Shown in pieces: positions 3,094-15,087 of a stretch of DNA of 64,000 nucleotides (its first letter is position 1; each line of letters starts with the position of its first letter). The translations under genes were made by a program, and so were the position numbers. Origin of the DNA: Escherichia phage SKA64. Under the pieces are notes generated by a model. The model did no database searches, had not been told where the DNA came from, and saw only the letters and a list, made by a program, of their open reading frames with translations. The stretch lies in sequence record OM362897.1. The stretch is one strand, 5' to 3'.

Positions 3094-3560
3094 ATTTTGC
3101 AGGATATGAACCTGTAGATCTTATTAATGGCGAGGGAGTTAGGTGCTCCCTCTGGGTTAGTGGTTGTAGCCACGGTTGTCGTGGCTGTTTTAACCAAAAA
3201 GCCTGGTCTTATTCTTATGGGAAACCGTTCACTCACGAAAATGTAGAGCAAGTTTTAAAAGATTTGTCAAGACCGTTTGTAAAAGGTTTAACAATTTTAG
3301 GAGGAGAGCCATTAGATCCACAGAATATTTACAATGTTAAAAACCTTATAGAAAAGGTTAGAGACGTTTATGGGTCAAGCAAAGATATAATGGTGTATAC
3401 AGGGTATACTTTTGAGGAAGTGCCTTTGTATATTAAAAATCTTGTTGACATTATTGTAGACGGAAAGTATGAAATAAACAATCCAACTACAAAACCTTTC
3501 AGAGGGTCAGATAATCAAAGATTATGGACCAAAACGGCAAGTGGTTGGCAATCAGATTAA
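3090..3560 (+). CDS. nrdG: anaerobic ribonucleotide reductase activating protein (radical SAM), NrdG
   Basis: 156 aa; Cys cluster CSHGCRGC (Cx3Cx2C) near N-terminus; TTG start overlapping nrdD stop, AGGGAG RBS upstream. Confidence 0.8.
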   Translation: MNFAGYEPVDLINGEGVRCSLWVSGCSHGCRGCFNQKAWSYSYGKPFTHENVEQVLKDLSRPFVKGLTILGGEPLDPQNIYNVKNLIEKVRDVYGSSKDIMVYTGYTFEEVPLYIKNLVDIIVDGKYEINNPTTKPFRGSDNQRLWTKTASGWQSD

Positions 3561-3573
3561 CTTAGGAGGTTTC

Positions 3574-3765
3574 ATGGTTACATATTTTGCTGTAGGAGAT
3601 AGAGTAGGGACGGCAGGAGAACTTTTGAAGAACAGTGATCGGGACGTTAAGGACATTCTTGCAACCCTTGTGGATATTTTACAAAGAAAAGAGTTGCTTT
3701 CTGATCGAGATGTTGCTAAATTACTTGATATCGGAGGAGATGAACTTCAAAGACTTCCATTTTAA
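3574..3765 (+). CDS. hypothetical small protein
   Basis: ATG at 3574 preceded by AGGAGG; the track ORF from 3541 (GTG) overlaps nrdG, so the internal ATG start is preferred. Confidence 0.5.
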   Translation: MVTYFAVGDRVGTAGELLKNSDRDVKDILATLVDILQRKELLSDRDVAKLLDIGGDELQRLPF

Positions 3766-3780
3766 GTGAGGAGATAAGTA

Positions 3781-4386
3781 ATGCAACATAGTGTAGTAGT
3801 CAACATGCCGAATAGTGGGGATAAATCTTTTGGTGTCCCTGCTAAAAAAGTGTGGAAAGCCCATTTTCATCTTACTTTATCTAACGTTAGTTCTGAAGAG
3901 TTGATGAAAGCAGCTAAGATTATTGGTGCCAAATGCACAACAATTGATTTACATCGGGATACAAAGTCTCAACGTGATCGTATGTTAACAAAGTATCAAA
4001 GCGATCTCGACACTACTTTAATGTTGCAGTGTGTAGAAAAACTTGAGAATGCAGGTTTCAATGTTGTTCGTTACAAACTGGAACGAATGTTTAAACATGT
4101 TGCCTGTGTTCTTTTCATGGATCTAAGTAAAGAAAATTACGGAGAAGTTCACATTAAGACTTCAGCAAGTGATCCCGAAGTAGAAACAAACTTCTTCCGT
4201 ATTTCTTCTAATGCTGAAGAAATTGATTACCGATTTTATAATGCTCGCTTATATTCCGCAGAAGATAAGTTGCGTTTCAATGAAGCGTATGATATGCTCT
4301 TGAACAGTGGGATACAGATAAAAGGCTACCACATAGAACAAGTGGTAGTGGACAGTAATCTTAACTTAGACGCATGGTGGGCTTAA
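3781..4386 (+). CDS. hypothetical protein (201 aa)
   Basis: ORF with GAGGAG RBS; first gene of the HAD/PRTase/macro run; no secure motif. Confidence 0.6.
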   Translation: MQHSVVVNMPNSGDKSFGVPAKKVWKAHFHLTLSNVSSEELMKAAKIIGAKCTTIDLHRDTKSQRDRMLTKYQSDLDTTLMLQCVEKLENAGFNVVRYKLERMFKHVACVLFMDLSKENYGEVHIKTSASDPEVETNFFRISSNAEEIDYRFYNARLYSAEDKLRFNEAYDMLLNSGIQIKGYHIEQVVVDSNLNLDAWWA

Positions 4387-4387
4387 T

Positions 4388-5044
4388 ATGACTATTAAAC
4401 ATATCTCTTTTGATGTATGGAACACACTGATCACAGCAAACTCCAATTACGCAGACATGCGAGCCTGGACTATCGCAAAATATGGAGATATTACGGAAGT
4501 TGAAGCAAGAGCAGCTTATAAAAAGATCAAAAAGGAACTGGATAATGCAGCACTTCAAGGCAAAGCCGAGTGTGCAGCATACGCCTGGGAAAGACTTGGT
4601 TCTGAACTTGGGATAACGCCTTGGAAGTCTGCAAAGCTTCGTTTCGAGTGTGAACAGTGGTTCCTTAAGTTTCCACCACACGTAGCCGTAGATCTGCCGA
4701 TGTACTTGCTGTATCTTTCTGGGCGTTATGATTTGAGTATTAAGAGCAATACCAACTTCATATCAGGGGATATTCTGCGTCGTGCTTGTAAGTTTGATAG
4801 TTGGAATTGTTTTGAGTTCACCCATTTCTCGGATGAAGCTTTACTTTGTAAACCAGATCCGCGATTCTTTGCTCGCACGCTCACGTATTCTCCGATCCCT
4901 CTGTTAGGGCACGAAGTGTTGCACGTAGGCGATAGTGAAGAATATGATGGAAAATGTGTTGACTTAGGGTTTAACTTCTGTCATATTAAGAACCCTAACG
5001 ACTTACTAGAGAAACTTAAAAGAGGAGAAATTGTAAATGCGTAA
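4388..5044 (+). CDS. HAD-like hydrolase (tentative)
   Basis: N-terminal FDVWNTL (variant HAD motif I) and C-terminal VGDSEEYD (HAD motif IV-like); assignment by motif only. Confidence 0.45.
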   Translation: MTIKHISFDVWNTLITANSNYADMRAWTIAKYGDITEVEARAAYKKIKKELDNAALQGKAECAAYAWERLGSELGITPWKSAKLRFECEQWFLKFPPHVAVDLPMYLLYLSGRYDLSIKSNTNFISGDILRRACKFDSWNCFEFTHFSDEALLCKPDPRFFARTLTYSPIPLLGHEVLHVGDSEEYDGKCVDLGFNFCHIKNPNDLLEKLKRGEIVNA

Positions 5045-5864
5045 TCAAACTCAAATTTTTGCAAATAAATTTGATGACCTGGAAACTGCTACTTTTGATA
5101 TCCAAGATTATTCAAAATTGAAATTTGGTAGTAACCAAGCTGCGCGTCGTATGGGTAAAGAATTGGCACTTCAGTTTTTTGCTCAAGTGGCAATGAAACA
5201 TATTGGGGAACAATTTGTTATCATTCCTTCTCCTTACAACCATGTGCATAATGCTGCAACAATGATGACAGATCATTTTATTAATTACTTCAATATGTTG
5301 CAAGCACAATATGATCAAGGTCGTTCAGCAGAACTGGACATTATTCATCGTAAAGTTAGCTATATCAACGATTATGGTTTCTTGGATAAAGCTAGTCGTA
5401 AGAAACTTATTGATGGGGATACATTCTACTGTAACAAAGAATTCTGGGGTGATAAGAAGCTTGTGTTTATTGATGATGTAAATATCACTGGAACTCATGA
5501 AGACAAACTGATTGAGATCCTTGATGAAAATCAAGTTAAAAATGATGTTTACTTCTTGTATTTTGCAAAATACGAAGGTAATCAAGCAGATACCGAAGCT
5601 AAACTGAATTTTAATTATATTAATACACCAGAAGCGTTTGTTAAAATGATTAATGAAGAACGTGATGCACAGTGTCTTGTTCGTCCTATTAAGTATCTTA
5701 TGGGCCAAAATCACGAAGACTTCAAAATCATTCTTAGCCAATTACCACACTACTATGTAGAGCAACTTTTCTTCGGATGTTTGGGAGAAGGTTACAACCG
5801 AATTTCAAAGTATGCCGAAAACTTTGAATTCTTGGATCGTTACACAAAACAACACATTCTGTAA
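5037..5864 (+). CDS. phosphoribosyltransferase-like protein (type I PRTase fold)
   Basis: PRPP-binding signature LVFIDDVNITGTHE (hydrophobic run, DD, TG-T); ATGCGTAA overlap with upstream gene. Confidence 0.55.
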   Translation: MRNQTQIFANKFDDLETATFDIQDYSKLKFGSNQAARRMGKELALQFFAQVAMKHIGEQFVIIPSPYNHVHNAATMMTDHFINYFNMLQAQYDQGRSAELDIIHRKVSYINDYGFLDKASRKKLIDGDTFYCNKEFWGDKKLVFIDDVNITGTHEDKLIEILDENQVKNDVYFLYFAKYEGNQADTEAKLNFNYINTPEAFVKMINEERDAQCLVRPIKYLMGQNHEDFKIILSQLPHYYVEQLFFGCLGEGYNRISKYAENFEFLDRYTKQHIL

Positions 5865-5877
5865 TAAGGAGCTAAAA

Positions 5878-6351
5878 ATGCTTAAAATGAAAACAGGTAA
5901 TCTTATTGATGCCGCTAAAGCAGGTGAAGTAACTGTTATTGCTCATTGTTGCAATTGTATGTGTAATATGGGGGCAGGTATTGCCCCACAAATCAAACGA
6001 GCATTTCCTTACGCATATGCAGCAGACTTAGACACAATGGCTGGTGATCAAAGTAAACTAGGTTGTTTTAGTTTAGGGGTGCCAGACGAACAATCAGATC
6101 CTTTGGTATATAATCTATACGGGCAGTATCGTTATGGATACAATGCTAAAGGTCGTCAGTTGGACTATGATGCACTTTACGATGCACTAATAGCTATGGC
6201 TAACGATTTGCTTCTCCGTGACCAAAAATGTAAGATCGGCTTACCTATGATTGGCGCTGGATATGCTGGAGGTAATTGGGCTATCATCCAAGTGATGATT
6301 GAAGAAACTTTAGTAAAAACAGGTCACGATGTGACTATTTATAAACTTTAA
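5878..6351 (+). CDS. macro domain protein (ADP-ribose binding/processing family)
   Basis: GNLID...VIAHCCNC...MGAGIA...IKRAF and later IGLPMIGAGYAGG match macro-domain motifs; start set at ATG 5878 with AAGGAG RBS rather than track start 5812. Confidence 0.6.
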   Translation: MLKMKTGNLIDAAKAGEVTVIAHCCNCMCNMGAGIAPQIKRAFPYAYAADLDTMAGDQSKLGCFSLGVPDEQSDPLVYNLYGQYRYGYNAKGRQLDYDALYDALIAMANDLLLRDQKCKIGLPMIGAGYAGGNWAIIQVMIEETLVKTGHDVTIYKL

Positions 6352-6363
6352 GAGGAGATTAGT

Positions 6364-6585
6364 ATGGGTGTTTTTGCAGGTATTGTTGCAGTGGTAAGCT
6401 TTTTTGTTATTGCTTTTATGCTTAGTTTGATTCCAGCTTGGTTACTGTTGCTGGCTTACAACTATGTTGCTGAAGTTATGGGTCATGCAGATATCACTGT
6501 CCCAGTAACCTTCTGGACCGTGGTTTGTGTTTCGTTTATTCTGGCTGTATTACGAGGAATCTTTTCCTCTCATTCAACAAAATAA
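6364..6585 (+). CDS. small hydrophobic membrane protein (73 aa)
   Basis: GAGGAG RBS; two predicted transmembrane helices. Confidence 0.55.
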   Translation: MGVFAGIVAVVSFFVIAFMLSLIPAWLLLLAYNYVAEVMGHADITVPVTFWTVVCVSFILAVLRGIFSSHSTK

Positions 6586-6588
6586 GTG

Positions 6589-6616
6589 TTGACATAGTTC
6601 TTAAAAAGAGTAAGAT
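6589..6616 (+). promoter_or_regulatory. sigma70-like promoter (TTGACA-16-TAAGAT) upstream of TerC gene
   Basis: Exact TTGACA -35 in the intergenic gap, acceptable -10 at 16-nt spacing; a 7-bp hairpin (GCGGGGA/TCCCCGC, about 6629-6647) lies in the short leader. Confidence 0.45.
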
Positions 6617-6664
6617 ATATCACATGAAGCGGGGAATAGTTCCCCGCAAAGAGAGGAGAAAAGA

Positions 6665-7639
6665 ATGCAACTTGGTTTCCCCATTATTGATGTAGTTGTT
6701 TTAGTTGGTATTTTAGCATTGTCTATTGGTATCGATTTCTTTGGTCACAAAGAAAATAAAGAAATTTCATTCAAATCCGCAGTTGATTGGTCGATCTTTT
6801 GGATTGGTGTATCATTAGCTTATTATGGTTTTGTATACTTCCAACATGGTGCCGATTTTGCTAACTTGTTTTTAAGTGGATATGTGTTGGAAAAATCTTT
6901 GTCGGTAGATAACTTAGTAGTATTTGTAGCAGTATTCGCAAGTTTTGGTATTAAAAGCACACACTTGCAGCACAAGATTCTACTTTGGGGTATTGCAGGT
7001 GCGATTGTCTTCCGAGGTGTGTTTGTAGCAGTAGGCACTTACTTGTTAAGTTTGGGCTGGTATGTTAATATCTTCTTCGGTGCGGTCATCCTTTTCTGTG
7101 CAGCTAAAATGGTATTTGCTGGAGATAATGACGCAGAAGTTGATTACTCTAAACACTGGGCTACCCGTATTGTTCGTAAACTGTTCCCTGTATCTAATAA
7201 AATGGATGGGGAGAAGTTCTTCACAATCGAAAATGGTGTTCGTGTAGCAACTCCAGCTTTGGTTTGCGTATTCGTGATGGAAATGGTGGATGTAATCTTT
7301 GCAGTAGATTCGGTTCCAGCGGTGATCGCAGTGACACAAGAACCCCTACTTGTATTCTCTTCGATGTTATGTGCAATCTTAGGTCTACGTGCTCTGTTCT
7401 TTGTTCTTAGTGTCGCACTGAAGTATCTGGTTCACTTGGAGAAAGCAGTTATTGTGGTTCTGGTGTTTGTAGGCGTTAAACTGATGTATCACCCGTTTGC
7501 AGAAACATTGCATGAGAAAATGAGTTTCCTGCCAGCACATATTGATCCAACTATTAGTATGTATATCGTGCTTGGTACTTTGGCCCTTGGTGTTATTGCA
7601 AGCTTTATCTTCCCTGAAAAAGAAGAAGCTACTATTTAA
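6665..7639 (+). CDS. TerC-family integral membrane protein
   Basis: 324 aa polytopic membrane protein containing YVLEKSLSVDNLVVF, matching the conserved E-x-SLSVDN signature recalled for the TerC family. Confidence 0.7.
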   Translation: MQLGFPIIDVVVLVGILALSIGIDFFGHKENKEISFKSAVDWSIFWIGVSLAYYGFVYFQHGADFANLFLSGYVLEKSLSVDNLVVFVAVFASFGIKSTHLQHKILLWGIAGAIVFRGVFVAVGTYLLSLGWYVNIFFGAVILFCAAKMVFAGDNDAEVDYSKHWATRIVRKLFPVSNKMDGEKFFTIENGVRVATPALVCVFVMEMVDVIFAVDSVPAVIAVTQEPLLVFSSMLCAILGLRALFFVLSVALKYLVHLEKAVIVVLVFVGVKLMYHPFAETLHEKMSFLPAHIDPTISMYIVLGTLALGVIASFIFPEKEEATI

Positions 7640-7645
7640 TAAATG

Positions 7646-7670
7646 AGCCTCCTTCGGGAGGCTATTTTAT
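7646..7670 (+). terminator. rho-independent terminator
   Basis: Stem AGCCTCC/GGAGGCT with TTCG loop followed by ATTTTAT just after TerC stop. Confidence 0.6.
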
Positions 7671-7681
7671 AGGAGAGACTT

Positions 7682-8032
7682 ATGAGTAATTTTGATGAAA
7701 TTCAAGAACTTGTTTGGGATTTATCTGGTGATGTGGATTACATTTCAGATTATCTTTCAAAAGTTTACCCTGGGGTAAGCGTTATGATTGTGACCAAAGA
7801 TCCAATTAGTTTGCCTCCCAATGTTGTAGCTTGTTGTGGAAGTGGTTCAGGAGAAGTAGAGCCTGTATCTCGTTGGGAATTAACTAAAGCTGTTTCAAAA
7901 CGAAACGGTGAAGTTTTGAATATTGATATTGAGCAAATATGGACTTCTCCAGCAGCCAAATGGAATGATCCAAATGGTTGGGATTTGTTCTTCTGGGATA
8001 ATGAGACTGATGATGAGGTGTTTTTAAAATGA
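7682..8032 (+). CDS. hypothetical protein (116 aa)
   Basis: ORF with RBS; acidic C-terminal half. Confidence 0.55.
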   Translation: MSNFDEIQELVWDLSGDVDYISDYLSKVYPGVSVMIVTKDPISLPPNVVACCGSGSGEVEPVSRWELTKAVSKRNGEVLNIDIEQIWTSPAAKWNDPNGWDLFFWDNETDDEVFLK

Positions 8033-8274
8033 AATACTTGTTGGTTGTGTTTGAAAATATCTGTTTTGCAATAGGGTTGTTTGTTGTAATTTTTGTATTG
8101 ACAAGCGTAATCAACGGCAGTAAAGTGAGTTTATACCGAGATGGAGAGCAACTTTATTGCTTCTCTGGAGATTTCAAACACAGATGTATTAATAGCCAAA
8201 ACGAGGAAAGCAAATATGAAAAAACTAGCCCTGATTTTAATTGGTTGTATCTTTTTAACAGCTTGCGAGGATGA
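8029..8274 (+). CDS. hypothetical small membrane protein (uncertain)
   Basis: ATGA start/stop overlap with upstream gene; hydrophobic N-terminus; overlaps the lipoprotein gene in another frame. Confidence 0.3.
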   Translation: MKYLLVVFENICFAIGLFVVIFVLTSVINGSKVSLYRDGEQLYCFSGDFKHRCINSQNEESKYEKTSPDFNWLYLFNSLRG

Positions 8275-8653
8275 AACAAATCCTGCACAATACCAACAAC
8301 CTCCTCAACAATACGCTCAACAAGGATCTGACGGAGATACAACTATTATCAACAATGGTGGCGGTTCTAGTAGTAGCGGTGTTGGTGAGTTTGCTACAGG
8401 TATGTTGTTAGGGCATATGATGAGTGGCGGTAGTAATCGTAGCAGTGGGGATTATAACGATAACAGAACGATTATTAATAAGCATTATAATACACCTAAA
8501 CCGAAAACTAATTTTTATGGTAAGCCTAAACAAGAGATAAAAACTTATGAAAAGCCGAGACAAACTTTTAAAACAAATAGTAGCTATACAACTCGTAAAT
8601 CTTACAATAGCCCTTTAAGTAAAAAGAGTTCATCTCGTAGCAAGCGACGTTAA
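8216..8653 (+). CDS. putative lipoprotein (Gln/Gly/Ser-rich, basic C-terminus)
   Basis: MKKLALILIGCIFLTAC signal peptide with lipobox LTAC; GAGGAAAG RBS; internal ATG chosen over track start 8141. Confidence 0.6.
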   Translation: MKKLALILIGCIFLTACEDETNPAQYQQPPQQYAQQGSDGDTTIINNGGGSSSSGVGEFATGMLLGHMMSGGSNRSSGDYNDNRTIINKHYNTPKPKTNFYGKPKQEIKTYEKPRQTFKTNSSYTTRKSYNSPLSKKSSSRSKRR

Positions 8654-8667
8654 TAAGGAGAAAAACA

Positions 8668-9261
8668 ATGACAATTTCTATTCGTACTTCCATTACAGGT
8701 GTTAAAAGTTTGCCTAATGCTTTGCAAATCACACGTGCTTTGAGGGATACGTTCTCTGCTGTGGATGAGCATAAGATGCTCGATAATCTCTCAAATTGGC
8801 CCTATTTTCATTATTTTAAAAATGAAGACGACGAGTTTATAGACGCTGTTTCTTACGGTTATGATTTCGGTAAGGAGGTTTCCCCTGAAGAATTTGTAGC
8901 TACGGTGTTCCCAAACGGTTTGCCTACTCGCAGTAAACGTAAAAAAGGACCAAAAAACAAGAAACGTGCTACTAATAAAGCTACCATTTTCTTTACTGAT
9001 GGCACACAATATACGATTAAAGACTTTGAAGAGGTATCTTATACAGCAGGTGGGAGTCTTTCTTTCTACACCATCAAAAAACAAAACTATACGTTCAGCC
9101 ATGTTTCTAACATGATTGAAATGTTAGTAGAAGATATTGAAAGCGTGGCTGTGTTAGGTATGCATAAAAGCTTTTTAATTACAAATATTTCAGATTTCAG
9201 TGCAAGTTTATCTGGCCCTGATTTTGAAGCCACGACCACGCATTTCGCTTTTAAGGTGTAA
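8668..9261 (+). CDS. hypothetical protein (197 aa)
   Basis: ORF with GGAGAAAAA RBS; no motif recognised. Confidence 0.55.
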   Translation: MTISIRTSITGVKSLPNALQITRALRDTFSAVDEHKMLDNLSNWPYFHYFKNEDDEFIDAVSYGYDFGKEVSPEEFVATVFPNGLPTRSKRKKGPKNKKRATNKATIFFTDGTQYTIKDFEEVSYTAGGSLSFYTIKKQNYTFSHVSNMIEMLVEDIESVAVLGMHKSFLITNISDFSASLSGPDFEATTTHFAFKV

Positions 9262-9264
9262 GTT

Positions 9265-9855
9265 ATGCATACCGAGAGAGACTTGCAACTCTTGTGGTGG
9301 GAAGTGATGCAGGAAATAAAAGAAGATTTTCCTGTTTACTACAACATGTTACGTGAAGCAGGATATAAAGCTTGTGTTAGAAACAAAGTGAATAACTCTT
9401 TCGGTTGGTGCAACTACCGAGATAAAATTGTTGTTGTAAATTGGCACTTGCATAAGAACTCCACAAGAGATATGATCGTGGATACAATGAAGCACGAAAT
9501 TGCTCATGCTATTGATGGTTGTATGGGTAAGTTTAGTAGGCACGGTGCTCATTGGCAAAAACTGGCAGCAGAATTAGGGGCTAATCCTAAAGCCACTTCC
9601 AAAGAGCCGTTGAACCACGAATATAAATATGTTCTTGTTCTGGTAGATAGGTTTGCGACAAGATGTGTTAGAGGTTATAATCGTAAACCTAATCGCATGT
9701 ACCCAGGTAAGCAACCTAATATGTGGTTGAAATCAGATAAAGAAGGGACCGAAGGAAAATTATGGTTGTATAAATGGGACGATTGGGTTAAAGTAGCTAA
9801 AGAGTACGGTGTTTCACCATATATAAGAGATGCAGAAGAGGAGAATGAAGAATGA
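9265..9855 (+). CDS. SprT-like zinc metallopeptidase domain protein
   Basis: IVDTMKHEIAHAIDG (HExxH zinc-binding motif in SprT-like context). Confidence 0.55.
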   Translation: MHTERDLQLLWWEVMQEIKEDFPVYYNMLREAGYKACVRNKVNNSFGWCNYRDKIVVVNWHLHKNSTRDMIVDTMKHEIAHAIDGCMGKFSRHGAHWQKLAAELGANPKATSKEPLNHEYKYVLVLVDRFATRCVRGYNRKPNRMYPGKQPNMWLKSDKEGTEGKLWLYKWDDWVKVAKEYGVSPYIRDAEEENEE

Positions 9856-10964
9856 CAAGTCCATTTTTAAAAGCAGCTACTGGTGGTCAGAAGAAGCCTG
9901 AAATGAGCGTATTTGCTGCAACAACAGATGCAAGTAAATCTGTATTCGCTCCAAGCGTGTTAGATGCCAGTCCTGTTTATGCACCAGCGGCACCGCAAGA
10001 AGTTCCAGTTTTGCCTTCTATGACCCGACAAGAGATTGAAGAGATTGGGGCAGAGGCAGGAACAACCTTGCGTTCCTTGAATGCCGAGGTGTTAAAACAT
10101 CAACGTAGTAATCAAGGCGATCAGATGAGTGAACGACTCACAGCTTTGATTAAACAGGCAAAACAACTTGATCCAAACTCTATTAAACAAAGCAAGGGTA
10201 TTACTAAACTCATTAAAAAAGTTATGGGTATGAAAGAAGACCTGTTCGGGGAGTTTGATAATGTTAATAACCGTATTGAAGAGTTGGTAAAGAACCTTCA
10301 AATGGATATTCGCAAAGAAGAAGATTCCTTGGTATATCTTGAAAAGCTACATCAAGCTATTGGACAATATGCTGCAAGTTTGAACCGAGATATGCAGCTT
10401 CTAACAGCAACCTATGAAAAAGAAGAACAAGCTTTGGCTGCTCTTCCAGAAGATGCAGTAGAACAGCGACAAGTGATCCGAGATACTTTGGATCTTCTGG
10501 AGATTCGTATTGCAGATTTAAAAGCATTGCGCCTACTGTGTGTCCAAATGGGACCGCGTGTACAAGGTATGCAAAAAGTTTCTGCAAGCTTAATGCGATC
10601 TGCGCGTAACATAGTAAATAATGTTATTCCTGCTTACTCTGCTAACTTCTCAATGTATATCGAGAGCTTACGTCAAATGAAAGCAGCAGAGACGCAGAAT
10701 AACGTTCTTGATGAATTTAACCTGGCAATTAAACTGGGTAGCGATCTTGCCACACAGAATCAGATCGAAGCAGCAGCACTGGCTAACCGTCAAGTGTTGG
10801 ATATTGAAACTCTGCGTCACGATCAGGAAAACTTGGTTAAGATGCTGGAAGAAACTAACCGCATCAATACGGAAGCCCGTGCTGCTCGTGTTGATTATAT
10901 TAATGAAGTTCAATCTCTGGAAGACGGGATGGTAGCTGCTGTGAAACGAGGGCTTGGTAAATGA
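9852..10964 (+). CDS. TelA/KlaA-like toxic-anion-resistance family protein (tentative)
   Basis: 370 aa, largely alpha-helical/coiled-coil, size and composition consistent with TelA; assignment supported mainly by TerC/TerD context. Confidence 0.4.
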   Translation: MTSPFLKAATGGQKKPEMSVFAATTDASKSVFAPSVLDASPVYAPAAPQEVPVLPSMTRQEIEEIGAEAGTTLRSLNAEVLKHQRSNQGDQMSERLTALIKQAKQLDPNSIKQSKGITKLIKKVMGMKEDLFGEFDNVNNRIEELVKNLQMDIRKEEDSLVYLEKLHQAIGQYAASLNRDMQLLTATYEKEEQALAALPEDAVEQRQVIRDTLDLLEIRIADLKALRLLCVQMGPRVQGMQKVSASLMRSARNIVNNVIPAYSANFSMYIESLRQMKAAETQNNVLDEFNLAIKLGSDLATQNQIEAAALANRQVLDIETLRHDQENLVKMLEETNRINTEARAARVDYINEVQSLEDGMVAAVKRGLGK

Positions 10965-11158
10965 GAATCCGTATCTATATAATTGATGAAGACATTGGTG
11001 TCCGTTATGATGACGAAAAACGATTCGCACCGATGGGAGGCATATATCCCCCAAGTGTTCTAGCAGTTTGTCGTGATTGTTATATTTATGAAGGTTGTCG
11101 TAACTTCCGTAAATTCGAACTCCTTGCAGATATTGACTTCAATGAGGAGGAGGAGTAA
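10961..11158 (+). CDS. hypothetical small protein with Cys pairs
   Basis: 65 aa, CRDCYIYEGC; ATGA overlap with upstream gene. Confidence 0.45.
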   Translation: MRIRIYIIDEDIGVRYDDEKRFAPMGGIYPPSVLAVCRDCYIYEGCRNFRKFELLADIDFNEEEE

Positions 11159-11331
11159 TGAAAATATTACGAGTGAATATTGAAACTGCTTGGTGTGGAT
11201 GCAATGAGGTTGTGGATATCGAAATTGAAGATGATATGTCTCAAGAGGATATAGAAGATCTTGCACACGAAACCTTTCAGGATTATTGTAATTACGGGTT
11301 CCATATTTTAGAGGAGGAAGAAGATGTATAA
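11158..11331 (+). CDS. hypothetical small acidic protein (57 aa, below track cutoff)
   Basis: ATG overlapping upstream TAA, GAGGAGGAGG RBS; found by manual translation. Confidence 0.35.
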   Translation: MKILRVNIETAWCGCNEVVDIEIEDDMSQEDIEDLAHETFQDYCNYGFHILEEEEDV

Positions 11332-11722
11332 TCCAACAGGTATTCTTTTAAAACTTACAGTAACAGACCCTACTCTTTTCATCAAGTTAGCAAGTGGTGA
11401 AGTTTATGAAGTAATGAAAGATGATGACGGTTGGTGTTATCTTTGTGGCTACTTCCTCTGTGATGCAGAAGAGTTAGAATCCATTGTAACTAAAGGTTTT
11501 TATGAAGAACCAGGGTTCCGTGTGGAAACTACGCAGAAACCTGATACCATTACGTTGACTCGACAGGAACTGATCACAATCATTGAAGATGCTTTTATTG
11601 ATGGCTGGAATACACAAGATAATGACTGGGGTGGACCCGAAGCTTTTCTGGAACATCATAAAGCTTATGGAGAATTTTGTGAAACCACTGTAGCTCTTGA
11701 TAATCTGAAGGAGGGTTTGTAA
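11324..11722 (+). CDS. hypothetical protein (132 aa)
   Basis: ORF with GAGGAGGAAG RBS. Confidence 0.55.
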   Translation: MYNPTGILLKLTVTDPTLFIKLASGEVYEVMKDDDGWCYLCGYFLCDAEELESIVTKGFYEEPGFRVETTQKPDTITLTRQELITIIEDAFIDGWNTQDNDWGGPEAFLEHHKAYGEFCETTVALDNLKEGL

Positions 11723-12285
11723 TGGGTTGTTTTAGCTTTTTGTGCAAAGAATCGGGCAAAGCTGCCCTTTCTACTTCTTTCGACGGATCACCTTGCTACC
11801 TCTTTCTTTTGAAGGACGGTGTTGTTATTGAAGAGATGTATGGCAACTATGATAGTTATGGTTGTGTTTTCTCTGGAAAGGAGGATGAAAATGGTGTTCG
11901 TGAACGATTTGAATGGGCTATGGATTGGAGTAAGGTTTGTGATTTGATGCATTCCTCAAATCCAAGAGACGGTATCGCTATGGTGCTGGAAGAGTACTTT
12001 ACAGGTGAAATCCCTACAGAACAATCTGACGGAGATCCTAACCAAGGTTGGGGTGATGGTGAAGAAGATCCAGATTGTTTTTTCAGCACAGAAAAGAATA
12101 AGTTTAAACGTGTTGACAACCCTTATCACAAAGTGCATAATACTCTCATTGAAACAGAAGATGACAAGATGGAAATTGAAGAAGATGATCCTCTTGTAAC
12201 ACTTCCTATAAGTGAGTTACAAAAGATCACTAAGGAAGCTTACGATTTGGGCTTCAAAATTGGTAGAGGAGGTATGCGTGTTTAG
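11722..12285 (+). CDS. hypothetical acidic protein (187 aa)
   Basis: ORF with GGAGGG RBS; Asp/Glu-rich. Confidence 0.55.
   Translation: MGCFSFLCKESGKAALSTSFDGSPCYLFLLKDGVVIEEMYGNYDSYGCVFSGKEDENGVRERFEWAMDWSKVCDLMHSSNPRDGIAMVLEEYFTGEIPTEQSDGDPNQGWGDGEEDPDCFFSTEKNKFKRVDNPYHKVHNTLIETEDDKMEIEEDDPLVTLPISELQKITKEAYDLGFKIGRGGMRV
12113..12141 (+). promoter_or_regulatory. possible sigma70-like promoter (TTGACA-17-CATAAT), intragenic
   Basis: Consensus hexamers at proper spacing about 140 nt upstream of the paralog-A/vWA gene pair, but inside a CDS. Confidence 0.3.
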
Positions 12286-12556
12286 ATTCAATATTCAAGA
12301 AGAAAAAAGTCAAGATTTACCTATTGCTTTCGAAGATCTTGACGTAGGGGCAACATTCATGTATTATGATGCCTATGAAGACGCAGGGTTGGATACGTAC
12401 CGTAACTTGGTGTTCATTAAAAATTCCACAAACAGTGCGATTTGTATTAATGGATCACTAGCACAACGAGGCTATACTCATTGCATCCCACCAGATACAA
12501 ATATGGTGGAAGTAGATTTAGAAGTTACCAATATTACACTTAAGAAGGAGAAATAA
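12278..12556 (+). CDS. small conserved protein, paralog A (pairs with 13578..13847)
   Basis: GTG start with AGAGGAGG RBS; shares DLDVGxTF...GLD...ITLK pattern with paralog B. Confidence 0.5.
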   Translation: MFRFNIQEEKSQDLPIAFEDLDVGATFMYYDAYEDAGLDTYRNLVFIKNSTNSAICINGSLAQRGYTHCIPPDTNMVEVDLEVTNITLKKEK

Positions 12557-12557
12557 T

Positions 12558-13352
12558 ATGTCCGAGAAAATCAGCCTGAAAAAACGTCAAGAAAACCTTG
12601 CTTTCTCTCTGAAAAAGAATAAGAACCTGAATGAAGGTAAGATTGTTCTTCGTGTAGCATGTGCTCTAGATATTTCTGGTAGTATGCATGGTCTATATTC
12701 TAGTGGGGTAGTGAGTGATTTTGTAGGTAAACTGCTTCCTTTTGGTATGTTGTTCGACGATAATCAACAAATTGATATGTGGGCCTTCAATACGAGTTCC
12801 CAAGAGCTTACTCCAGCAACAGCAGACGTTTACGACGACTATGTTGGTAAATGTATGCGTAATGTTCGTATCGGAGGTGGAACAAATTACGCCCCTGTAA
12901 TGGCAGATATCTACGATGAGTATTTTGGCACTGTTACCAAATATATTACCACTAAACAAGTGGTACAAGAGGAGGCTCCAAAGAAAGGCTTCTTTAATCG
13001 TCTGCTTGGTAAAACTGAAACAGTGTCTGTAGAGCGTGAAAAAGTTGTAGCTGTATCAGAACCAGGTGCTGACGTTACCCCTGGTGTTGTATTCTTCCAG
13101 ACGGATGGTGAGAATGGTGATCCTAGTGCTGTTCGTCGTCTTATCGAAGAGAATAAGAATAAACCTATTTATTGGTTCATGGTTGGCGTTGGTAATGAGA
13201 AGTTTGGCTTCCTGAAAGAACTGGCAAATGCTTATGATAATGTTGGTTTTATTGGCATTAAAGATTTAGACTTGACAGATTCAGAGCTTTATGACAAACT
13301 CTTATCTGAAGAGTTCGGAGAGTGGGTTGTTAAAGTAGGTGCTAAAAAATGA
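12558..13352 (+). CDS. TerF-like protein: TerD-type N-terminus fused to von Willebrand factor A domain
   Basis: N-terminal KISLKK segment like TerD; MIDAS motif LDISGSM plus GGGTNY and FFQTDGENGD. Confidence 0.6.
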   Translation: MSEKISLKKRQENLAFSLKKNKNLNEGKIVLRVACALDISGSMHGLYSSGVVSDFVGKLLPFGMLFDDNQQIDMWAFNTSSQELTPATADVYDDYVGKCMRNVRIGGGTNYAPVMADIYDEYFGTVTKYITTKQVVQEEAPKKGFFNRLLGKTETVSVEREKVVAVSEPGADVTPGVVFFQTDGENGDPSAVRRLIEENKNKPIYWFMVGVGNEKFGFLKELANAYDNVGFIGIKDLDLTDSELYDKLLSEEFGEWVVKVGAKK

Positions 13353-13597
13353 TCGACGAGCTTGCCTCTCAAGTCATAGAAAATTATTGGCGCGAGAGAG
13401 AAGCTTTCATTATGCGCAGTCTCAAAGAGTATTTCATTGGGACTGTGCGAATGGAAGATATTGTAAGTAGAGTGGAGATTCATGTATGGCCCGATTATGA
13501 AGAATGGGTTGACAAAGAAAATGAAAATGCTATAATTCTTCGTATATACAAACCGGAGATAACATTAGGAGGAAGAAGTGTTAAACTTCGAAATTGA
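13349..13597 (+). CDS. hypothetical protein (82 aa)
   Basis: ATGA overlap with upstream gene; contains a promoter-like sequence near its end. Confidence 0.45.
   Translation: MIDELASQVIENYWREREAFIMRSLKEYFIGTVRMEDIVSRVEIHVWPDYEEWVDKENENAIILRIYKPEITLGGRSVKLRN
13509..13536 (+). promoter_or_regulatory. possible sigma70-like promoter (TTGACA-16-TATAAT), intragenic
   Basis: Perfect -35 and -10 hexamers upstream of paralog B and TerD, inside a CDS. Confidence 0.35.
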
Positions 13598-13847
13598 TGA
13601 GCAAAAAGTAAATAAACGATGCCTTACCATTAAAGATTTGGATGTAGGAGATACTTTCGTCTATGAAAATGCATTTGACGAAAATGGTTTAGACCTTAGT
13701 GAAATCATTGTTTATTTAAAAGTAGATGATGGGGAAAATGATTATTCTGCTGTAGAACTAAACCATCATGCACAATTAGTATCAATCCAAAGCACATCTA
13801 AGCTTTTGGAAGTAGAATTGACTGTAACTGGTATTACACTTAAATAA
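13578..13847 (+). CDS. small conserved protein, paralog B (pairs with 12278..12556)
   Basis: GTG start with AGGAGG RBS; shared motif pattern with paralog A. Confidence 0.5.
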   Translation: MLNFEIDEQKVNKRCLTIKDLDVGDTFVYENAFDENGLDLSEIIVYLKVDDGENDYSAVELNHHAQLVSIQSTSKLLEVELTVTGITLK

Positions 13848-13862
13848 TAGAGGAGACAAAAG

Positions 13863-14465
13863 ATGACTGATAAAATTTCCCTGAAAAAAGGCTCTAGCGA
13901 AAAAATTTCCCTGAAGAAGGTTGCTCCGGCTCTGAAAGAACTGCGCCTGGAATTCTCTTGGAAGTCTGATTCTAAACTGGATCTGGATGTAAGTGCACTG
14001 GTTTGTCGTCACAATGCCGCTGGCAATCCTGAAATGCTGTCTGCACGTCATCTTGTTTGCTATGCTAACAAGTTTGATCCTGAACGTTCTACCTTCGCTG
14101 GTGACGATGTTCGTGATGGCACTGGCAGCATGGAGCAGATCGATATTACTCTGGCTAAAATCTCTCCTGATGCACAAGAGATTGCCTTTGTTCTGACCAT
14201 TGATGATGATACAGGTCTGAAACGTTTTGGTCATGCTTCTGAAGGTATGCTTAAAATCTTCGACTCCGAGCGCAATGTGGAAATTCTGGATTTTGACTTC
14301 CTGGCTCCTGAAGTAGCTGGCAACACAATCTGCCACGTGGCTTCCTTGGTTCGTGAAGATGGGGAATGGAAGCTGAAAGCATATGGTGTAGGCAAAGCTG
14401 GTCTGGATATTTGTGATGTGGTGATGGCCTTCGGTGGTAAAAAAGAATGGTATGAATGTCCATAA
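13863..14465 (+). CDS. TerD-domain stress protein
   Basis: 200 aa; N-terminal KISLKKG...LDLDVSALV and GDDVRDGTG...IDDD pattern typical of TerD; codon usage biased to CTG/CGT/GGC. Confidence 0.75.
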   Translation: MTDKISLKKGSSEKISLKKVAPALKELRLEFSWKSDSKLDLDVSALVCRHNAAGNPEMLSARHLVCYANKFDPERSTFAGDDVRDGTGSMEQIDITLAKISPDAQEIAFVLTIDDDTGLKRFGHASEGMLKIFDSERNVEILDFDFLAPEVAGNTICHVASLVREDGEWKLKAYGVGKAGLDICDVVMAFGGKKEWYECP

Positions 14466-14483
14466 TAATTAACAAATGATTTT

Positions 14484-14503
14484 GAGGGGGAGAAATCCCC
14501 CTC
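14484..14503 (+). terminator. stem-loop / possible weak terminator after TerD
   Basis: GAGGGGG-AGAAAT-CCCCCTC hairpin; weak U-tract, so efficiency uncertain. Confidence 0.35.
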
Positions 14504-14532
14504 TTGCAATAAAGCCTCTATCGTGTTATACT
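14504..14532 (+). promoter_or_regulatory. sigma70-like promoter (TTGCAA-17-TATACT)
   Basis: Intergenic, immediately after hairpin and upstream of hydrolase gene. Confidence 0.5.
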
Positions 14533-14564
14533 AGAAATTCGTTAACTTAAAAAGGAGGCAAAAT

Positions 14565-15086
14565 TTGCTGATAAAAAACTTTGTAACAGTTGCGTTACTA
14601 TCCTTAACTGCTTTTACATTTACACCTGTTGTGGCGAAAGCCGAAGCTGCAAACGTAAAAACCGCTAAAGTAGTTCACAAATGTACAAAGCAATATAATG
14701 ATAAAATTCTATTAGCTTGTGCAATTTACGCAGAAGGTCGCGGTCTGGGTAAAAAAGGAATGAATGCCGTTGGGAATGTGGTAATCAACAGAAGAAATGA
14801 TACCTACTTCCCTAACACAGTCAGAGGGGTCTTGTTCCAGAAAGGGCAATTCTCATATGCGAAAACTTTTAACGTAACAGAGAAAGATAAGTGGCAGGAA
14901 GCAAAAGCAATAGCGGAGCGTTTACTTTATTTAGAGAAACATTTTCCTGAATTGCGGTCTGTTTTAGATGTTACTAAAGGTGCTCTATACTTCAAGAAAC
15001 GGAATATAAGGACACACTGGGAACGTGATATGCGTCTTGTTTATCGAGATAAAGTGCATGGTTTCTATCTACCAAAGGGGAGTTAA
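14565..15086 (+). CDS. secreted cell-wall hydrolase, SleB-like domain (candidate endolysin)
   Basis: TTG start with AAGGAGG RBS; Sec-type signal peptide ending AKA-EA; AIYAEGRG...VGNVVINR...QKGQFSYA matches SleB-type hydrolase motifs. Confidence 0.65.
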   Translation: MLIKNFVTVALLSLTAFTFTPVVAKAEAANVKTAKVVHKCTKQYNDKILLACAIYAEGRGLGKKGMNAVGNVVINRRNDTYFPNTVRGVLFQKGQFSYAKTFNVTEKDKWQEAKAIAERLLYLEKHFPELRSVLDVTKGALYFKKRNIRTHWERDMRLVYRDKVHGFYLPKGS

Positions 15087-15087
15087 A

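What the first reader, a model, noticed from the sequence alone, without database searches (positions are those of the whole stretch)
3781..14465. Phage-borne Ter-like module: TerC + TerD + TerF-type vWA + TelA-like, next to PRTase/HAD/macro enzymes
Within about 10 kb of the early region the sequence shows a TerC-family membrane protein (EKSLSVDN), a TerD-domain protein, a second TerD-like N-terminus fused to a vWA domain (DxSxS MIDAS), a TelA-like helical protein and an SprT-like peptidase, preceded by PRTase-like, HAD-like and macro-domain enzymes. In bacteria Ter proteins sit in conserved neighbourhoods with PRTase and HAD genes, which comparative genomics (Aravind group) predicted to build a nucleoside-like metabolite, and the plasmid ter operon is classically linked to phage inhibition. 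A near-complete set in a virulent phage suggests it imports or counteracts this stress pathway. I am not aware of this arrangement being characterised in a phage.
Basis: partly seen in the sequence, partly recalled or inferred. Interest (0 to 1): 0.85.

Follow-up and report, generated by a model that had tools for sequence, protein, structure and literature searches.

The report
Phage-borne Ter-type membrane stress module
A 150-kb virulent E. coli phage (phAPEC8-like) really does carry a working-looking set of "tellurite-resistance" (Ter) genes plus a linked two-enzyme small-molecule pathway, but such sets have already been described by sequence comparison in other phages, and nobody has yet tested what they do.

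Summary
Profile searches place the proteins in TerC, TelA, TerF-type vWA, TerD, PRTase_3, SprT-like, HAD-like (weak) and macro (borderline). Two details are wrong. The first gene (3781-4386) belongs to none of the named families. The vWA protein has no TerD domain, only a 20-residue N-terminal motif that is shared across the vWA-TerF family.

The window is a Phapecoctavirus (99% identical to phage tuntematon), and 132 phage records hold the block. Among 18 PRTase_3-anchored loci (14 phage lineages with the window), HAD lies directly upstream of PRTase_3 in all 18. The only gene families that recur nearby in more than 3 of the 14 lineages are vWA-TerF, TerD, TelA and TerC or TerC-like DUF475. 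So the functional unit has six families. The 201-aa protein, the macro domain and SprT are lineage-specific passengers. Core genes are under strong purifying selection (dN/dS 0.04-0.09).

Ter sets in virulent phages are already in print, including one with PRTase and HAD (Iyer et al. 2021; also phiKp34 and phiPsa374), together with the superinfection-exclusion idea. I found no experimental test. Verdict: real, a new member of a known kind, mechanism still open. Its main value is as a compact Ter system in phages that grow on E. coli K-12.

The parts
3781..4386 (+). 201-aa protein of an uncharacterised family (phrog_22504). It is a lineage-specific neighbour, probably not part of the Ter unit.
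4388..5044 (+). HAD-superfamily (type IA-like) hydrolase, the invariant partner of PRTase_3
   Evidence: Pfam HAD 21 bits, below the gathering score; NCBIfam DREG-2/YjjG-like matches are weak. It lies directly upstream of PRTase_3 in 18 of 18 loci and on Rhizobium plasmids. The nucleophile Asp, SN, Lys and GDxxxD are conserved; the Asp+2 position is always Trp or Tyr.
5037..5864 (+). PRTase_3 (ComF-like type I phosphoribosyltransferase)
   Evidence: PF15610, 144 bits, full length. The PRPP-loop residues D146, D147, T151, G152 and T153 are invariant in 17 homologues. Present in 156 phage records. No solved relative.
5878..6351 (+). Macro domain of the TARG1/SCO6735/DarG class; accessory
   Evidence: Pfam 22.9 bits against a gathering score of 22. 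PDB 5E3B E 9e-13, also TARG1 and the DarG macro domain. PADLOC DarG 37 bits; NCBIfam DarG 34 bits, far below its cut-off of 250. Found near PRTase_3 in 2 of 14 lineages.
6364..6585 (+). 73-aa protein with two hydrophobic helices
   Evidence: Hydropathy scan. Conserved only in close relatives.
6589..6616 (+). sigma-70-like promoter in front of terC
   Evidence: TTGACA-16-TAAGAT. Independently annotated as a host-dependent promoter in phAPEC8 and ASO2A.
6629..6647 (+). Stable 5'-leader hairpin of the terC transcript. It has no U tract and no riboswitch match.
   Evidence: -14.6 kcal/mol, z -3.2. Rfam finds nothing in 1-20000.
6665..7639 (+). TerC (TerC/Alx subfamily) polytopic inner-membrane protein
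   Evidence: dN/dS 0.04.
7646..7663 (+). Intrinsic-terminator-like hairpin after terC
   Evidence: Annotated as a terminator in ASO2A.
9265..9855 (+). SprT-like Zn-metallopeptidase (HEIAH). Its stop overlaps the telA start. Accessory. The annotated start in relatives is 9307.
   Evidence: PF10263, 37 bits. Found only in L006 and L009 among related loci.
9852..10964 (+). TelA-family all-helical protein
   Evidence: PF05816, 116 bits. The AF2 model shows long helical hairpins, pLDDT 74. No significant fold match. No hydrophobic segment.
12113..12141 (+). sigma-70-like promoter (11 of 12 matches) ahead of the small ORF and vWA unit
12278..12556 (+). About 92-aa acidic protein, paralogue of 13578-13847. 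It starts with GTG after the RBS AGAGGAGG.
12558..13352 (+). vWA-TerF-like protein with an intact MIDAS and a lineage-specific insertion of about 25 residues
   Evidence: 28% identical to the C-terminal vWA part of IncHI2 TerF. 39% identical to the vWA of a Caballeronia TelA-vWA-DUF475-TerD cluster.
13509..13536 (+). Perfect-consensus sigma-70-like promoter (TTGACA-16-TG-TATAAT) ahead of the small ORF and terD unit
13578..13847 (+). 89-aa acidic protein, paralogue of 12278-12556
13863..14465 (+). TerD-domain protein
   Evidence: PF02342, 99 bits. PDB 2KXT and 3IBZ. dN/dS 0.05.
14485..14504 (+). G+C-rich hairpin after terD (terminator-like, weak T tract)
   Evidence: Sequence read. A terminator is annotated at the matching position in ASO2A.

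Best explanation
This is a phage-encoded Ter-type system made of six protein families.

The soluble enzyme pair is PRTase_3 plus its invariant HAD partner. Inferred: it uses PRPP and an unknown base-like acceptor to make a nucleotide- or nucleoside-like small molecule.

The membrane arm has four parts:
- TerC, a polytopic cation-handling inner-membrane protein;
- TerD, a Ca2+-binding beta-sandwich;
- a TerF-type vWA protein with an intact MIDAS metal site;
- TelA, a long-helix protein.

Inferred: these four assemble at the cytoplasmic face of the inner membrane. Inferred from consensus promoters: host RNA polymerase expresses them from sigma-70-type promoters early in infection. Inferred: the assembly changes the ion handling and permeability state of the infected cell's inner membrane, so that the cell resists a second insult while the phage replicates. 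Such insults include DNA injection by superinfecting phages, pore-forming colicins and membrane-depolarising abortive-infection effectors. This is the phage-inhibition and colicin-resistance phenotype known for plasmid ter operons, used here by the phage for its own benefit.

Shown: family membership, intact motifs, purifying selection, and recurrent co-occurrence with shuffled gene order. Not shown: the product, the complex and the phenotype.

I put the identification as a Ter-type system at about 0.9. The confidence of 0.4 given for this explanation refers to the membrane-protection and superinfection-exclusion mechanism.
For: - Family assignments.
- Motifs: the PRPP loop, the HAD nucleophile and motifs II-IV and the MIDAS are all intact.
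- Selection: dN/dS is 0.04-0.09 for HAD, PRTase_3, TerC, TelA and TerD, as low as for the phage's NrdD.
- Unbiased clustering of all + strand ORFs within 10 kb of PRTase_3, over 14 phage lineages (18 loci plus the window). HAD is present in 14 of 14. The only other families present in more than 3 lineages are vWA-TerF (7), TerD (7), TelA (5) and TerC (4). TerC-like DUF475 is present in 3 further lineages. Gene order differs between lineages: L004 and L005 have TerC-x-TerD-x-vWA-HAD-PRT, while the window has HAD-PRT...TerC...TelA...vWA...TerD.
- Bacterial counterparts: a compact TelA-vWA-DUF475-TerD cluster on a Caballeronia plasmid, and terZABCDE plus TerF beside an ATP-grasp/PRTase cluster on IncHI2.
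- Expression: the best sigma-70-like + strand sites fall just ahead of terC, of the vWA unit and of the terD unit. Terminator-like hairpins follow terC and terD.
- Literature: the same reading was proposed for jumbo phages by Iyer et al. 2021. terD genes of gut jumbo phages are highly transcribed and lie next to a pspA-like gene (PMC12880540).
Against: - No experiment on any phage Ter gene was found.
- In 7 of 14 lineages, and on Rhizobium plasmids, the HAD-PRTase_3 pair has no detectable Ter gene within 10 kb. The pair can therefore work alone.
- The HAD family lacks the Asp+2 general acid of classical HAD phosphatases; it is always Trp or Tyr. The 'nucleotide to nucleoside' step is therefore uncertain.
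- PRTase_3, TerC, TelA and vWA-TerF have no solved relatives. The TelA model gives only weak, non-specific helical matches.
- The overall count of promoter-like sites is no higher than in shuffled sequence: 49 against 44.8 +/- 7.3.
- No PADLOC defence model matches TerC, TelA, vWA, TerD, HAD or PRTase_3.
Confidence: 0.4

Rival explanations
1. Metal-homeostasis auxiliary genes. TerC/Alx-type proteins move Mn2+ and related cations, TerD buffers Ca2+, and the vWA MIDAS binds divalent metal. On this reading the phage adjusts cytoplasmic or periplasmic Mn/Ca/Zn to suit its own metallo-enzymes, which include the RNR genes immediately upstream and the secreted SleB-type lysin downstream. Excluding competitors would not be the purpose.
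For: TerC passes the NCBIfam 'TerC/Alx family metal homeostasis membrane protein' model (319 bits). The title of a K. pneumoniae study states that terC contributes to both tellurite and zinc resistance (PMC12054061, listed; not read). The closest solved relative of the TerD protein is K. pneumoniae TerD, which I recall to be a Ca2+-binding protein. The block lies between nrdDG and the endolysin. Gut jumbo phages with highly transcribed terD also carry a Ca2+ P-type ATPase.
Against: It does not explain why a PRTase/HAD pair and TelA travel with TerC and TerD in independent lineages. There is no yybP-ykoY Mn2+ riboswitch or any other Rfam element ahead of terC. The second acidic Ca2+-site cluster of K. 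pneumoniae TerD (GDGDDE) reads GTGSMEQ in the phage protein (alignment).
Confidence: 0.2
2. Two unrelated gene sets that happen to be neighbours. On this reading the left arm (201-aa protein, HAD, PRTase_3, macro) is an NAD/ADP-ribose or nucleotide-signal counter-defence or salvage pathway, and only the right arm (TerC, TelA, vWA, TerD) is 'Ter'.
For: Relatives of the 201-aa protein are fused to NUDIX or HD_4. In other phages they lie next to Acb1 and NADAR, or to NAD kinase, NAMPT and NUDIX. The macro domain is of the TARG1/DarG class that removes ADP-ribose. HAD-PRTase_3 occurs without Ter genes in 7 of 14 lineages and on Rhizobium plasmids. terC has its own promoter and terminator.
Against: The 201-aa and macro genes accompany PRTase_3 in only 1-2 of 14 lineages, whereas the Ter families do so in 7. 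In L004 and L005 the HAD-PRTase_3 pair is contiguous with vWA, TerD and TerC. Pfam's PRTase_3 family name comes from the Ter comparative-genomics work (my knowledge of the Anantharaman et al. 2012 paper, which could not be opened).
Confidence: 0.2
3. Control of lysis timing. On this reading the membrane-associated Ter proteins stabilise the inner membrane against the phage's own holin and lysin until assembly is complete. They would act with the small TM proteins and the lipoprotein in the block and with the adjacent SleB-type endolysin.
For: The SleB-like endolysin follows terD directly. It co-occurs with the block in the close relatives and in L018. The block holds a 2-TM protein, and a 1-TM protein that overlaps a lipoprotein gene.
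Against: The endolysin is linked in only 2 of 14 lineages. Bacterial and plasmid Ter clusters have no lysis genes. Consensus sigma-70 promoters suggest early rather than late expression.
Confidence: 0.1
4. Decoy or dominant-negative proteins that disable a host Ter defence.
For: Plasmid ter operons are reported to inhibit phages (Whelan et al. 1995, as cited). Phage TerC is 47% identical to plasmid TerC.
Against: Catalytic and metal-binding motifs are intact and under purifying selection. The phages are propagated on K-12 MG1655, which to my knowledge has no ter operon. The same six-family set occurs in phages of Rhizobium-, Caulobacter- and Xanthomonas-type hosts.
Confidence: 0.05

Closest known systems
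Phage-borne Ter systems described by Iyer, Anantharaman, Krishnan, Burroughs & Aravind 2021 (jumbo phages: Acinetobacter phage ME3 with PRTase+HAD; Caulobacter jumbo phages with TerD/TerC/TerF/TelA)
   Same: The families are the same (PRTase, HAD, TerD, TerC, TerF-type vWA, TelA) and the setting is again a virulent phage. The proposed role in competition with superinfecting phages is the same. Caulobacter, Brevundimonas and Xanthomonas jumbo phages carry homologues of the window's PRTase_3 and TerD.
   Different: This phage has a 150-kb genome and is not a jumbo phage (Stephanstirmvirinae). The genes are spread over 10.7 kb with many small ORFs between them. There are lineage-specific additions: the 201-aa protein, the macro domain, SprT and two paralogous 90-aa ORFs. 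The genus is not named in that paper.
terC-terD-terF(vWA)-telA sets noted in Klebsiella phage phiKp34 and Pseudomonas phage phiPsa374
   Same: The same four effector families occur in virulent phages, and the authors state that the function is unknown.
   Different: Those reports do not mention the PRTase_3/HAD pair.
Plasmid/island terZABCDEF operon (IncHI2 R478 type) with its divergent ATP-grasp/PRTase/HpcH cluster
   Same: TerC is 47% identical over its full length. The TerD domain is shared. The vWA protein aligns to the C-terminal vWA part of TerF at 28% identity. A PRTase-containing biosynthetic cluster lies alongside.
   Different: The phage block has no TerB, no TerZ/A/E paralogues, no TerD-vWA fusion, and no ATP-grasp, StiP or HpcH genes. 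Its PRTase belongs to a different family: tblastn with PRTase_3 finds no enterobacterial plasmid. TelA is present here but is not part of that operon.
Bacterial four-gene TelA-vWA-TerC-like(DUF475)-TerD cluster (for example Caballeronia grimmiae plasmid p2)
   Same: The same four families are present, and the vWA protein is 39% identical. Phage loci L011, L015 and L016 use DUF475 in place of TerC.
   Different: The genes there are compact and contiguous, and no HAD or PRTase gene is annotated next to the cluster.
E. coli Alx / B. subtilis TerC-family Mn2+ exporters
   Same: They belong to the same NCBIfam subfamily, TIGR03718.
   Different: There is no Mn2+ riboswitch leader and no nucleotide-level similarity to any E. 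coli genome. The phage gene is linked to TerD, TelA and vWA genes.

Membership tests
Ter system (Anantharaman/Iyer/Aravind sense) | TerC-family polytopic membrane protein | tested here: met
   PF03741, 133 bits; TIGR03718, 319 bits, above its cut-off; about 9-10 hydrophobic segments.
Ter system (Anantharaman/Iyer/Aravind sense) | TerD-domain protein | tested here: met
   PF02342, 99 bits; PDB 2KXT E 1.5e-15. The first Ca2+-site motifs (DLDVSA, GDD) are kept, and the second acidic cluster is degenerate.
Ter system (Anantharaman/Iyer/Aravind sense) | TelA and TerF-type vWA 'sub-membrane' components | tested here: met
   PF05816, 116 bits; PF10138, 130 bits with an invariant MIDAS.
Ter system (Anantharaman/Iyer/Aravind sense) | Linked PRTase plus HAD biosynthetic enzymes | tested here: met
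   PRTase_3, 144 bits. HAD is adjacent in 18 of 18 loci. Co-occurs with Ter families in 7 of 14 lineages.
Ter system (Anantharaman/Iyer/Aravind sense) | TerB-domain protein | tested here: not met
   Most ORFs of the block (20 scanned; four small ones at 3574, 8029, 11158 and 12278 were not) gave no TerB match. The rest of the genome was not scanned.
Ter system (Anantharaman/Iyer/Aravind sense) | Phenotype: resistance to tellurite, phages or pore-forming colicins | not testable with these tools
   This needs wet-lab assays. No published test for any phage Ter set was found.
Classical terZABCDEF operon | Contiguous operon with TerZ/A/D/E paralogues, TerB, TerC and TerF (TerD+vWA fusion) | tested here: not met
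   The block has one TerD, no TerB, a vWA protein without a TerD domain (264 aa against 413 aa) and dispersed genes.
HAD phosphatase | Motif I DxDx(T/V) with the nucleophile Asp and the Asp+2 general acid | tested here: not met
   The nucleophile Asp is invariant, but position +2 is Trp or Tyr in all 15 phage and rhizobial members. The Pfam score is below the gathering score.
HAD phosphatase | Motifs II (S/T), III (K) and IV (GDxxxD) | tested here: met
   SN, K-P and H-[VI]-G-D...D are invariant.
Type I phosphoribosyltransferase | PRPP-binding loop (acidic pair followed by T-G-x-T) | tested here: met
   FIDDVNITGTH; D146, D147, T151, G152 and T153 are invariant in 17 sequences. The acceptor substrate cannot be tested here.
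DarG antitoxin (anti-DarT macro protein) | Macro domain plus the DarT-binding C-terminal domain, above the equivalog cut-off | tested here: not met
   NCBIfam NF048014, 34 bits against a cut-off of 250. The protein is 157 aa and consists of the macro domain only. Its closest solved relative is SCO6735, 5E3B.
2H phosphoesterase (considered for the 201-aa protein because of the HxT motif) | Bilobed 2H fold with two HxT/S motifs | tested here: not met
TerY-P defence system | Match to PADLOC defence-system models | tested here: not met
   The vWA, TerD, TelA and TerC proteins have no PADLOC match at E <= 0.01. I assumed, but did not check, that the PADLOC library contains TerY-P models. No kinase or PP2C domain was found among the scanned ORFs of the block.
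yybP-ykoY (Mn2+) riboswitch-controlled alx/terC | Riboswitch in the leader | tested here: not met
   No Rfam match at E <= 1 in 1-20000. The leader holds only a 19-nt hairpin.

The most novel reading that the evidence does not exclude
The six-family phage set may be a minimal, self-sufficient Ter machine. PRTase_3 and HAD would make a so far unknown nucleoside-like messenger. TerD or the vWA protein would sense it, and a TerC/TelA membrane assembly would then close the infected cell to incoming DNA and to pore-forming or abortive-infection effectors.

These phages grow on E. coli K-12, which to my knowledge has no ter operon. That would make them a tractable system for working out how Ter proteins act, a question open since the plasmid ter operons were described. 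It could also reveal a new small-molecule signal in phage-phage competition.
Probability: 0.2. Interest if true: 0.75.

Novelty: new member of a known kind. Interest (0 to 1): 0.4.

Why it matters
Ter proteins are widespread in bacteria, plasmids and phages. They are linked to tellurite, colicin and phage resistance, yet they have no accepted mechanism. Four of the six families here have no relative of solved structure detectable by sequence search.

This analysis sharpens what the phage version consists of: an invariant HAD-PRTase_3 pair whose only recurrent partners are TerD, TerF-type vWA, TelA and TerC or DUF475. It separates that core from the passenger genes. It also shows that the set is conserved and under selection across the Phapecoctavirus and Justusliebigvirus records examined (the two Stephanstirmvirinae genera seen here), which are phages being isolated for therapy.

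If the module mediates superinfection exclusion or protects against membrane-targeting defences, that would bear on phage-cocktail design. It would also give a genetically tractable entry to Ter biology. As an observation, though, it is not new.

Tried and rejected
- 2H-phosphoesterase idea for the 201-aa protein: rejected on fold searches. Its PADLOC 'AbiEi' match (E 5e-13) could not be backed by Pfam or by gene context. Follow-up contexts point to NAD/nucleotide enzymes instead. Two further look-ups hit contigs too short to help.
- Mn2+ riboswitch ahead of terC: none.
- Recent capture of host alx: no nucleotide match in 5,426 E. coli genomes.
- TelA as a PspA/ESCRT-III-like or BAR-like protein: the Foldseek matches are weak (E >= 8e-3, TM <= 0.38) and generic for long helices. 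ClyA-family toxins and F-BAR domains appear among them, but not convincingly.
- The unknown 311-402-aa proteins between the Ter genes in L004 and L005 as divergent TelA: BLASTP and Pfam do not support it.
The bacterial context therefore came from plasmids.
- The afdb50 fold library was unavailable.
- The Anantharaman et al. 2012 paper could not be opened. Statements about it rest on citing papers and on my own knowledge.
- The promoter scan as a whole finds no more sites than in shuffled sequence. Only the positions of the top hits, and their agreement with two independent annotations, carry weight.

Full report
**What the window is.** The block 3781-14465 matches 132 phage records, 62 of them over at least 80% of its length. 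The best are Escherichia phages tuntematon, ESCO37, REC and Mt1B1_P17 at 99.1% identity. These are Phapecoctavirus, subfamily Stephanstirmvirinae, with linear genomes of about 150 kb, and several were isolated on E. coli K-12 MG1655. All genes from 48 to about 27,500 lie on the + strand. The block lies between the anaerobic ribonucleotide reductase genes nrdD/nrdG (1279-3560) and a SleB-type endolysin (14565-15086). Four glycosyltransferase genes and the replication genes follow.

**Check of the observation.**
- TerC, 6665-7639: 133 bits in Pfam. It passes the TerC/Alx NCBIfam model with 319 bits against a cut-off of 246.
- TelA, 9852-10964: 116 bits.
- vWA-TerF-like, 12558-13352: 130 bits.
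- TerD, 13863-14465: 99 bits; K. pneumoniae TerD 2KXT at E 1.5e-15.
- SprT-like, to 9855: 37 bits, with an HEIAH motif.
- PRTase_3 'ComF-like', 5037-5864: 144 bits.
- HAD, 4388-5044: weak, 21 bits against a gathering score of 26.
- Macro, 5878-6351: borderline, 22.9 bits against 22, but E 9e-13 to the solved macrodomain 5E3B.

Phage TerC is 47% identical over its full length to the TerC of IncHI2-type ter operons. The vWA protein aligns at 28% identity to the C-terminal vWA half of the 413-aa TerF of those operons.

Two details of the observation do not hold. First, gene 3781-4386 matches none of the named families. Second, the 'TerD-like N-terminus' of the vWA protein is only a 20-residue motif, and all twelve vWA-TerF-like homologues I aligned share it. 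The protein is therefore a stand-alone TerF-type vWA, not a TerD-vWA fusion. No TerB, TerA, TerZ or TerE is present in the block.

**What belongs together.** I anchored on PRTase_3 and collected 18 loci with up to 10 kb on each side. Two came from metagenome contigs of phage character and sixteen from IMG/VR. Together with the window they represent 14 lineages, counting all Stephanstirmvirinae-like loci as one.

An iterative HMM search finds the HAD gene directly upstream of PRTase_3 in 18 of 18 loci. The same pair stands alone on Rhizobium and Sinorhizobium plasmids at 37-40% identity.

I then clustered every + strand ORF without reference to annotation. Apart from HAD and PRTase_3, the only families present in more than three lineages are vWA-TerF (7), TerD (7), TelA (5) and TerC (4). 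One further cluster, found in L011, L015 and L016, is DUF475, a TerC-related membrane family. A TerC-like protein therefore accompanies the pair in 7 of 14 lineages.

Gene order differs between lineages. In L004 and L005 it is TerC-x-TerD-x-vWA-HAD-PRTase_3, all contiguous. In the window it is HAD-PRTase_3 ... TerC ... TelA ... vWA ... TerD. Conserved content with shuffled order argues for functional linkage rather than inherited synteny.

By the same measure the other genes are lineage-specific passengers. These are the 201-aa protein (close relatives only), the macro domain (2 lineages), SprT (close relatives only), the endolysin (2 lineages) and all the small ORFs.

**Are the genes functional?** Against the 79-93%-identical relative L006, dN/dS is:
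- 0.09 for HAD,
- 0.04 for PRTase_3, TerC and TelA,
- 0.05 for TerD.

These values are comparable with the 0.09 obtained for NrdD against L007. Synonymous sites are near saturation, so the values are rough.

Catalytic and binding motifs are intact:
- The PRPP loop FIDDVNITGTH has invariant D146, D147, T151, G152 and T153.
- The MIDAS motifs D-x-S-G-S, GGT and TDG are invariant.
- The HAD nucleophile Asp, the SN motif, the Lys and GDxxxD are invariant.

One caveat deserves attention. The Asp+2 general acid of classical HAD phosphatases is Trp or Tyr in every member of this HAD family, bacterial members included. The usual assumption that this enzyme simply dephosphorylates the PRTase product is therefore not secure.

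**Expression signals.** The strongest sigma-70-like + strand sites fall in three places:
- 6589-6616, in the 80-nt gap before terC;
- 12113-12141, before a small ORF and the vWA gene;
- 13509-13536, a perfect TTGACA-16-TG-TATAAT before a paralogous small ORF and terD.

A strong terminator hairpin follows terC (7646-7663), and a G+C-rich hairpin follows terD (14485-14504). The annotators of phAPEC8 and ASO2A independently placed a host-type promoter before terC and terminators after terC and terD. The total number of promoter-like sites does not exceed that in shuffled sequence. Only the placement of the top hits and the agreement with those annotations count as evidence.

The terC leader carries a stable hairpin (6629-6647; -14.6 kcal/mol, z -3.2) without a U tract. 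No Rfam family, including the Mn2+ riboswitch that precedes E. coli alx, matches anywhere in 1-20000.

- a 36%-identical homologue overlaps the start of an Acb1 gene, with NADAR nearby;
- the HD_4 fusion follows an NAD kinase gene near NAMPT and NUDIX genes.

This points to NAD or nucleotide-signal chemistry that is independent of Ter.

The macro domain is closest to SCO6735, BT1257, TARG1 and the DarG macro domain. It falls far short of the DarG equivalog threshold.

**Mechanism.** None of the steps has been shown experimentally for any phage. The best-supported reading follows.
- PRTase_3 and HAD make a small nucleotide- or nucleoside-like product from PRPP (inferred from the family and from intact motifs).
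- TerD, the vWA protein and TelA are soluble and acidic, with no hydrophobic segment. They are inferred to act at the cytoplasmic face of the inner membrane together with TerC.
- The assembly alters cation handling and membrane permeability so that the infected cell resists further insults: superinfecting phages, pore-forming colicins and membrane-depolarising abortive-infection effectors.

This mirrors the phage-inhibition and colicin-resistance phenotypes reported for the R478 ter cluster (Whelan et al. 1995, as cited). It is also the hypothesis Iyer et al. proposed for jumbo phages. Circumstantial support comes from gut jumbo phages, whose terD genes are among the most highly transcribed and lie next to a pspA-like gene. 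In L018 an SPFH/Band-7 gene directly follows PRTase_3.

The rivals are:
- metal-homeostasis auxiliary genes;
- two unrelated neighbouring gene sets;
- control of lysis timing;
- decoys against a host Ter system.

The last is the least likely. The motifs are intact, and the phages are grown on K-12, which to my knowledge lacks a ter operon.

**Comparison with what is known.** The block meets the defining features of the Ter network as set out by the Aravind group: TerC, TerD, TelA, TerF-type vWA and a linked PRTase and HAD. It lacks TerB. It is not a copy of the classical terZABCDEF operon, for three reasons:
- there are no TerB or TerZ/A/E paralogues and no TerD-vWA fusion;
- the PRTase family is different, since tblastn with PRTase_3 hits no enterobacterial plasmid;
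- the ATP-grasp, StiP and HpcH genes that flank the IncHI2 operon are absent.

The closest bacterial arrangement I found is the compact TelA-vWA-DUF475-TerD cluster on a Caballeronia plasmid, where the vWA protein is 39% identical.

Phage-borne Ter sets are already in print. They are reported for jumbo phages, including one with PRTase and HAD, for Klebsiella phage phiKp34 and for Pseudomonas phage phiPsa374, whose authors state that the functions are unknown. Several GenBank records of this very block carry names such as TelA-like, TerC, VWA, SprT-like and 'general stress protein 16U'. RefSeq, however, still calls most of the genes hypothetical.

**Verdict.** The feature is real and conserved, and it was read largely correctly, but it is a new member of a known kind rather than a new kind. 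This analysis adds four things:
- a data-driven definition of the six-family core;
- the separation of the passenger genes from that core;
- the Asp+2 anomaly in the HAD partner;
- the point that phages infecting K-12 offer a compact system for testing how Ter proteins work.

PRTase_3, TerC, TelA and vWA-TerF have no relative of solved structure detectable by sequence search, which shows how open the mechanism remains. Interest 0.4.

Noticed in passing
window 3781-4386; L029 8001-8534; L034/L035 5001-6125: The 201-aa protein (phrog_22504) belongs to an uncharacterised, phage-rich family of 254 clusters. Its conserved residues include H28, H30, T32, E122, H124, K126 and an RFYNAR motif. The fold has no convincing known match. 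Some homologues are fused to NUDIX or HD_4. In other phages, homologues sit next to Acb1 and NADAR, or to NAD kinase, NAMPT and NUDIX genes. It also matches two PADLOC models labelled 'AbiEi' (E about 1e-13). It may be a new NAD/nucleotide-signal enzyme or a counter-defence protein.
   Followed up: partly
window 6665-7639 compared with L007/L010 about 12088-13100: TerC is 95% identical (dS 0.55) to the TerC of another lineage (L007/L010, whose proteins match the ~65%-identity group that includes Justusliebigvirus records). The neighbouring genes are only 49-81% identical (dS 1-2). This suggests a recent exchange of terC between phage genera.
   Followed up: partly
window 12278-12556 and 13578-13847: Two paralogous acidic ORFs of about 90 aa (31% identity over the aligned part). 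Each follows a sigma-70-like promoter and comes just before a Ter gene (vWA and TerD respectively). The function is unknown. One GenBank record labels the second one 'RNA ligase', which the sequence does not support.
   Followed up: partly
window 8029-8274 and 8216-8653: An 81-aa protein with a single TM segment overlaps the start of a gene for a 145-aa basic lipoprotein (lipobox LTAC, Gly/Ser-rich). The arrangement recalls overlapping spanin genes or a superinfection-exclusion lipoprotein.
   Followed up: no
window 6589-6664: The terC leader has a host-type promoter followed by a 19-nt G+C-rich hairpin without a U tract, and the RBS is left free. It may be a 5' stabiliser. One annotated relative calls it a terminator.
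   Followed up: partly
L002, L003 (GTDB genome contigs JAEZZU010000022.1, JAPMLR010000123.1); phage records MG065650, MG065656, MG065645, OP562383, OR584014: Two bacterial 'genome' assemblies (a Proteobacteria MAG and a Lysobacteraceae isolate) contain DNA whose PRTase_3 is 97-99% identical in protein sequence to this phage's. Separately, records named Campylobacter, Acinetobacter or Pseudomonas phage are Stephanstirmvirinae-like (ABPW7 96.7% and B15 96% DNA identity over the block; PsgM04F 79% and C3 65% PRTase_3 protein identity). The binning and the host labels look doubtful.
   Followed up: no
L018 10835-11776: In one distant phage lineage an SPFH/Band-7 membrane-scaffold gene directly follows PRTase_3. 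This is another hint that the pair works at the membrane.
   Followed up: no
window 15788-18932: Four consecutive glycosyltransferase genes lie just downstream of the endolysin, and the last two are paralogues. They were not examined further. They may modify the host surface or the phage DNA.
   Followed up: no
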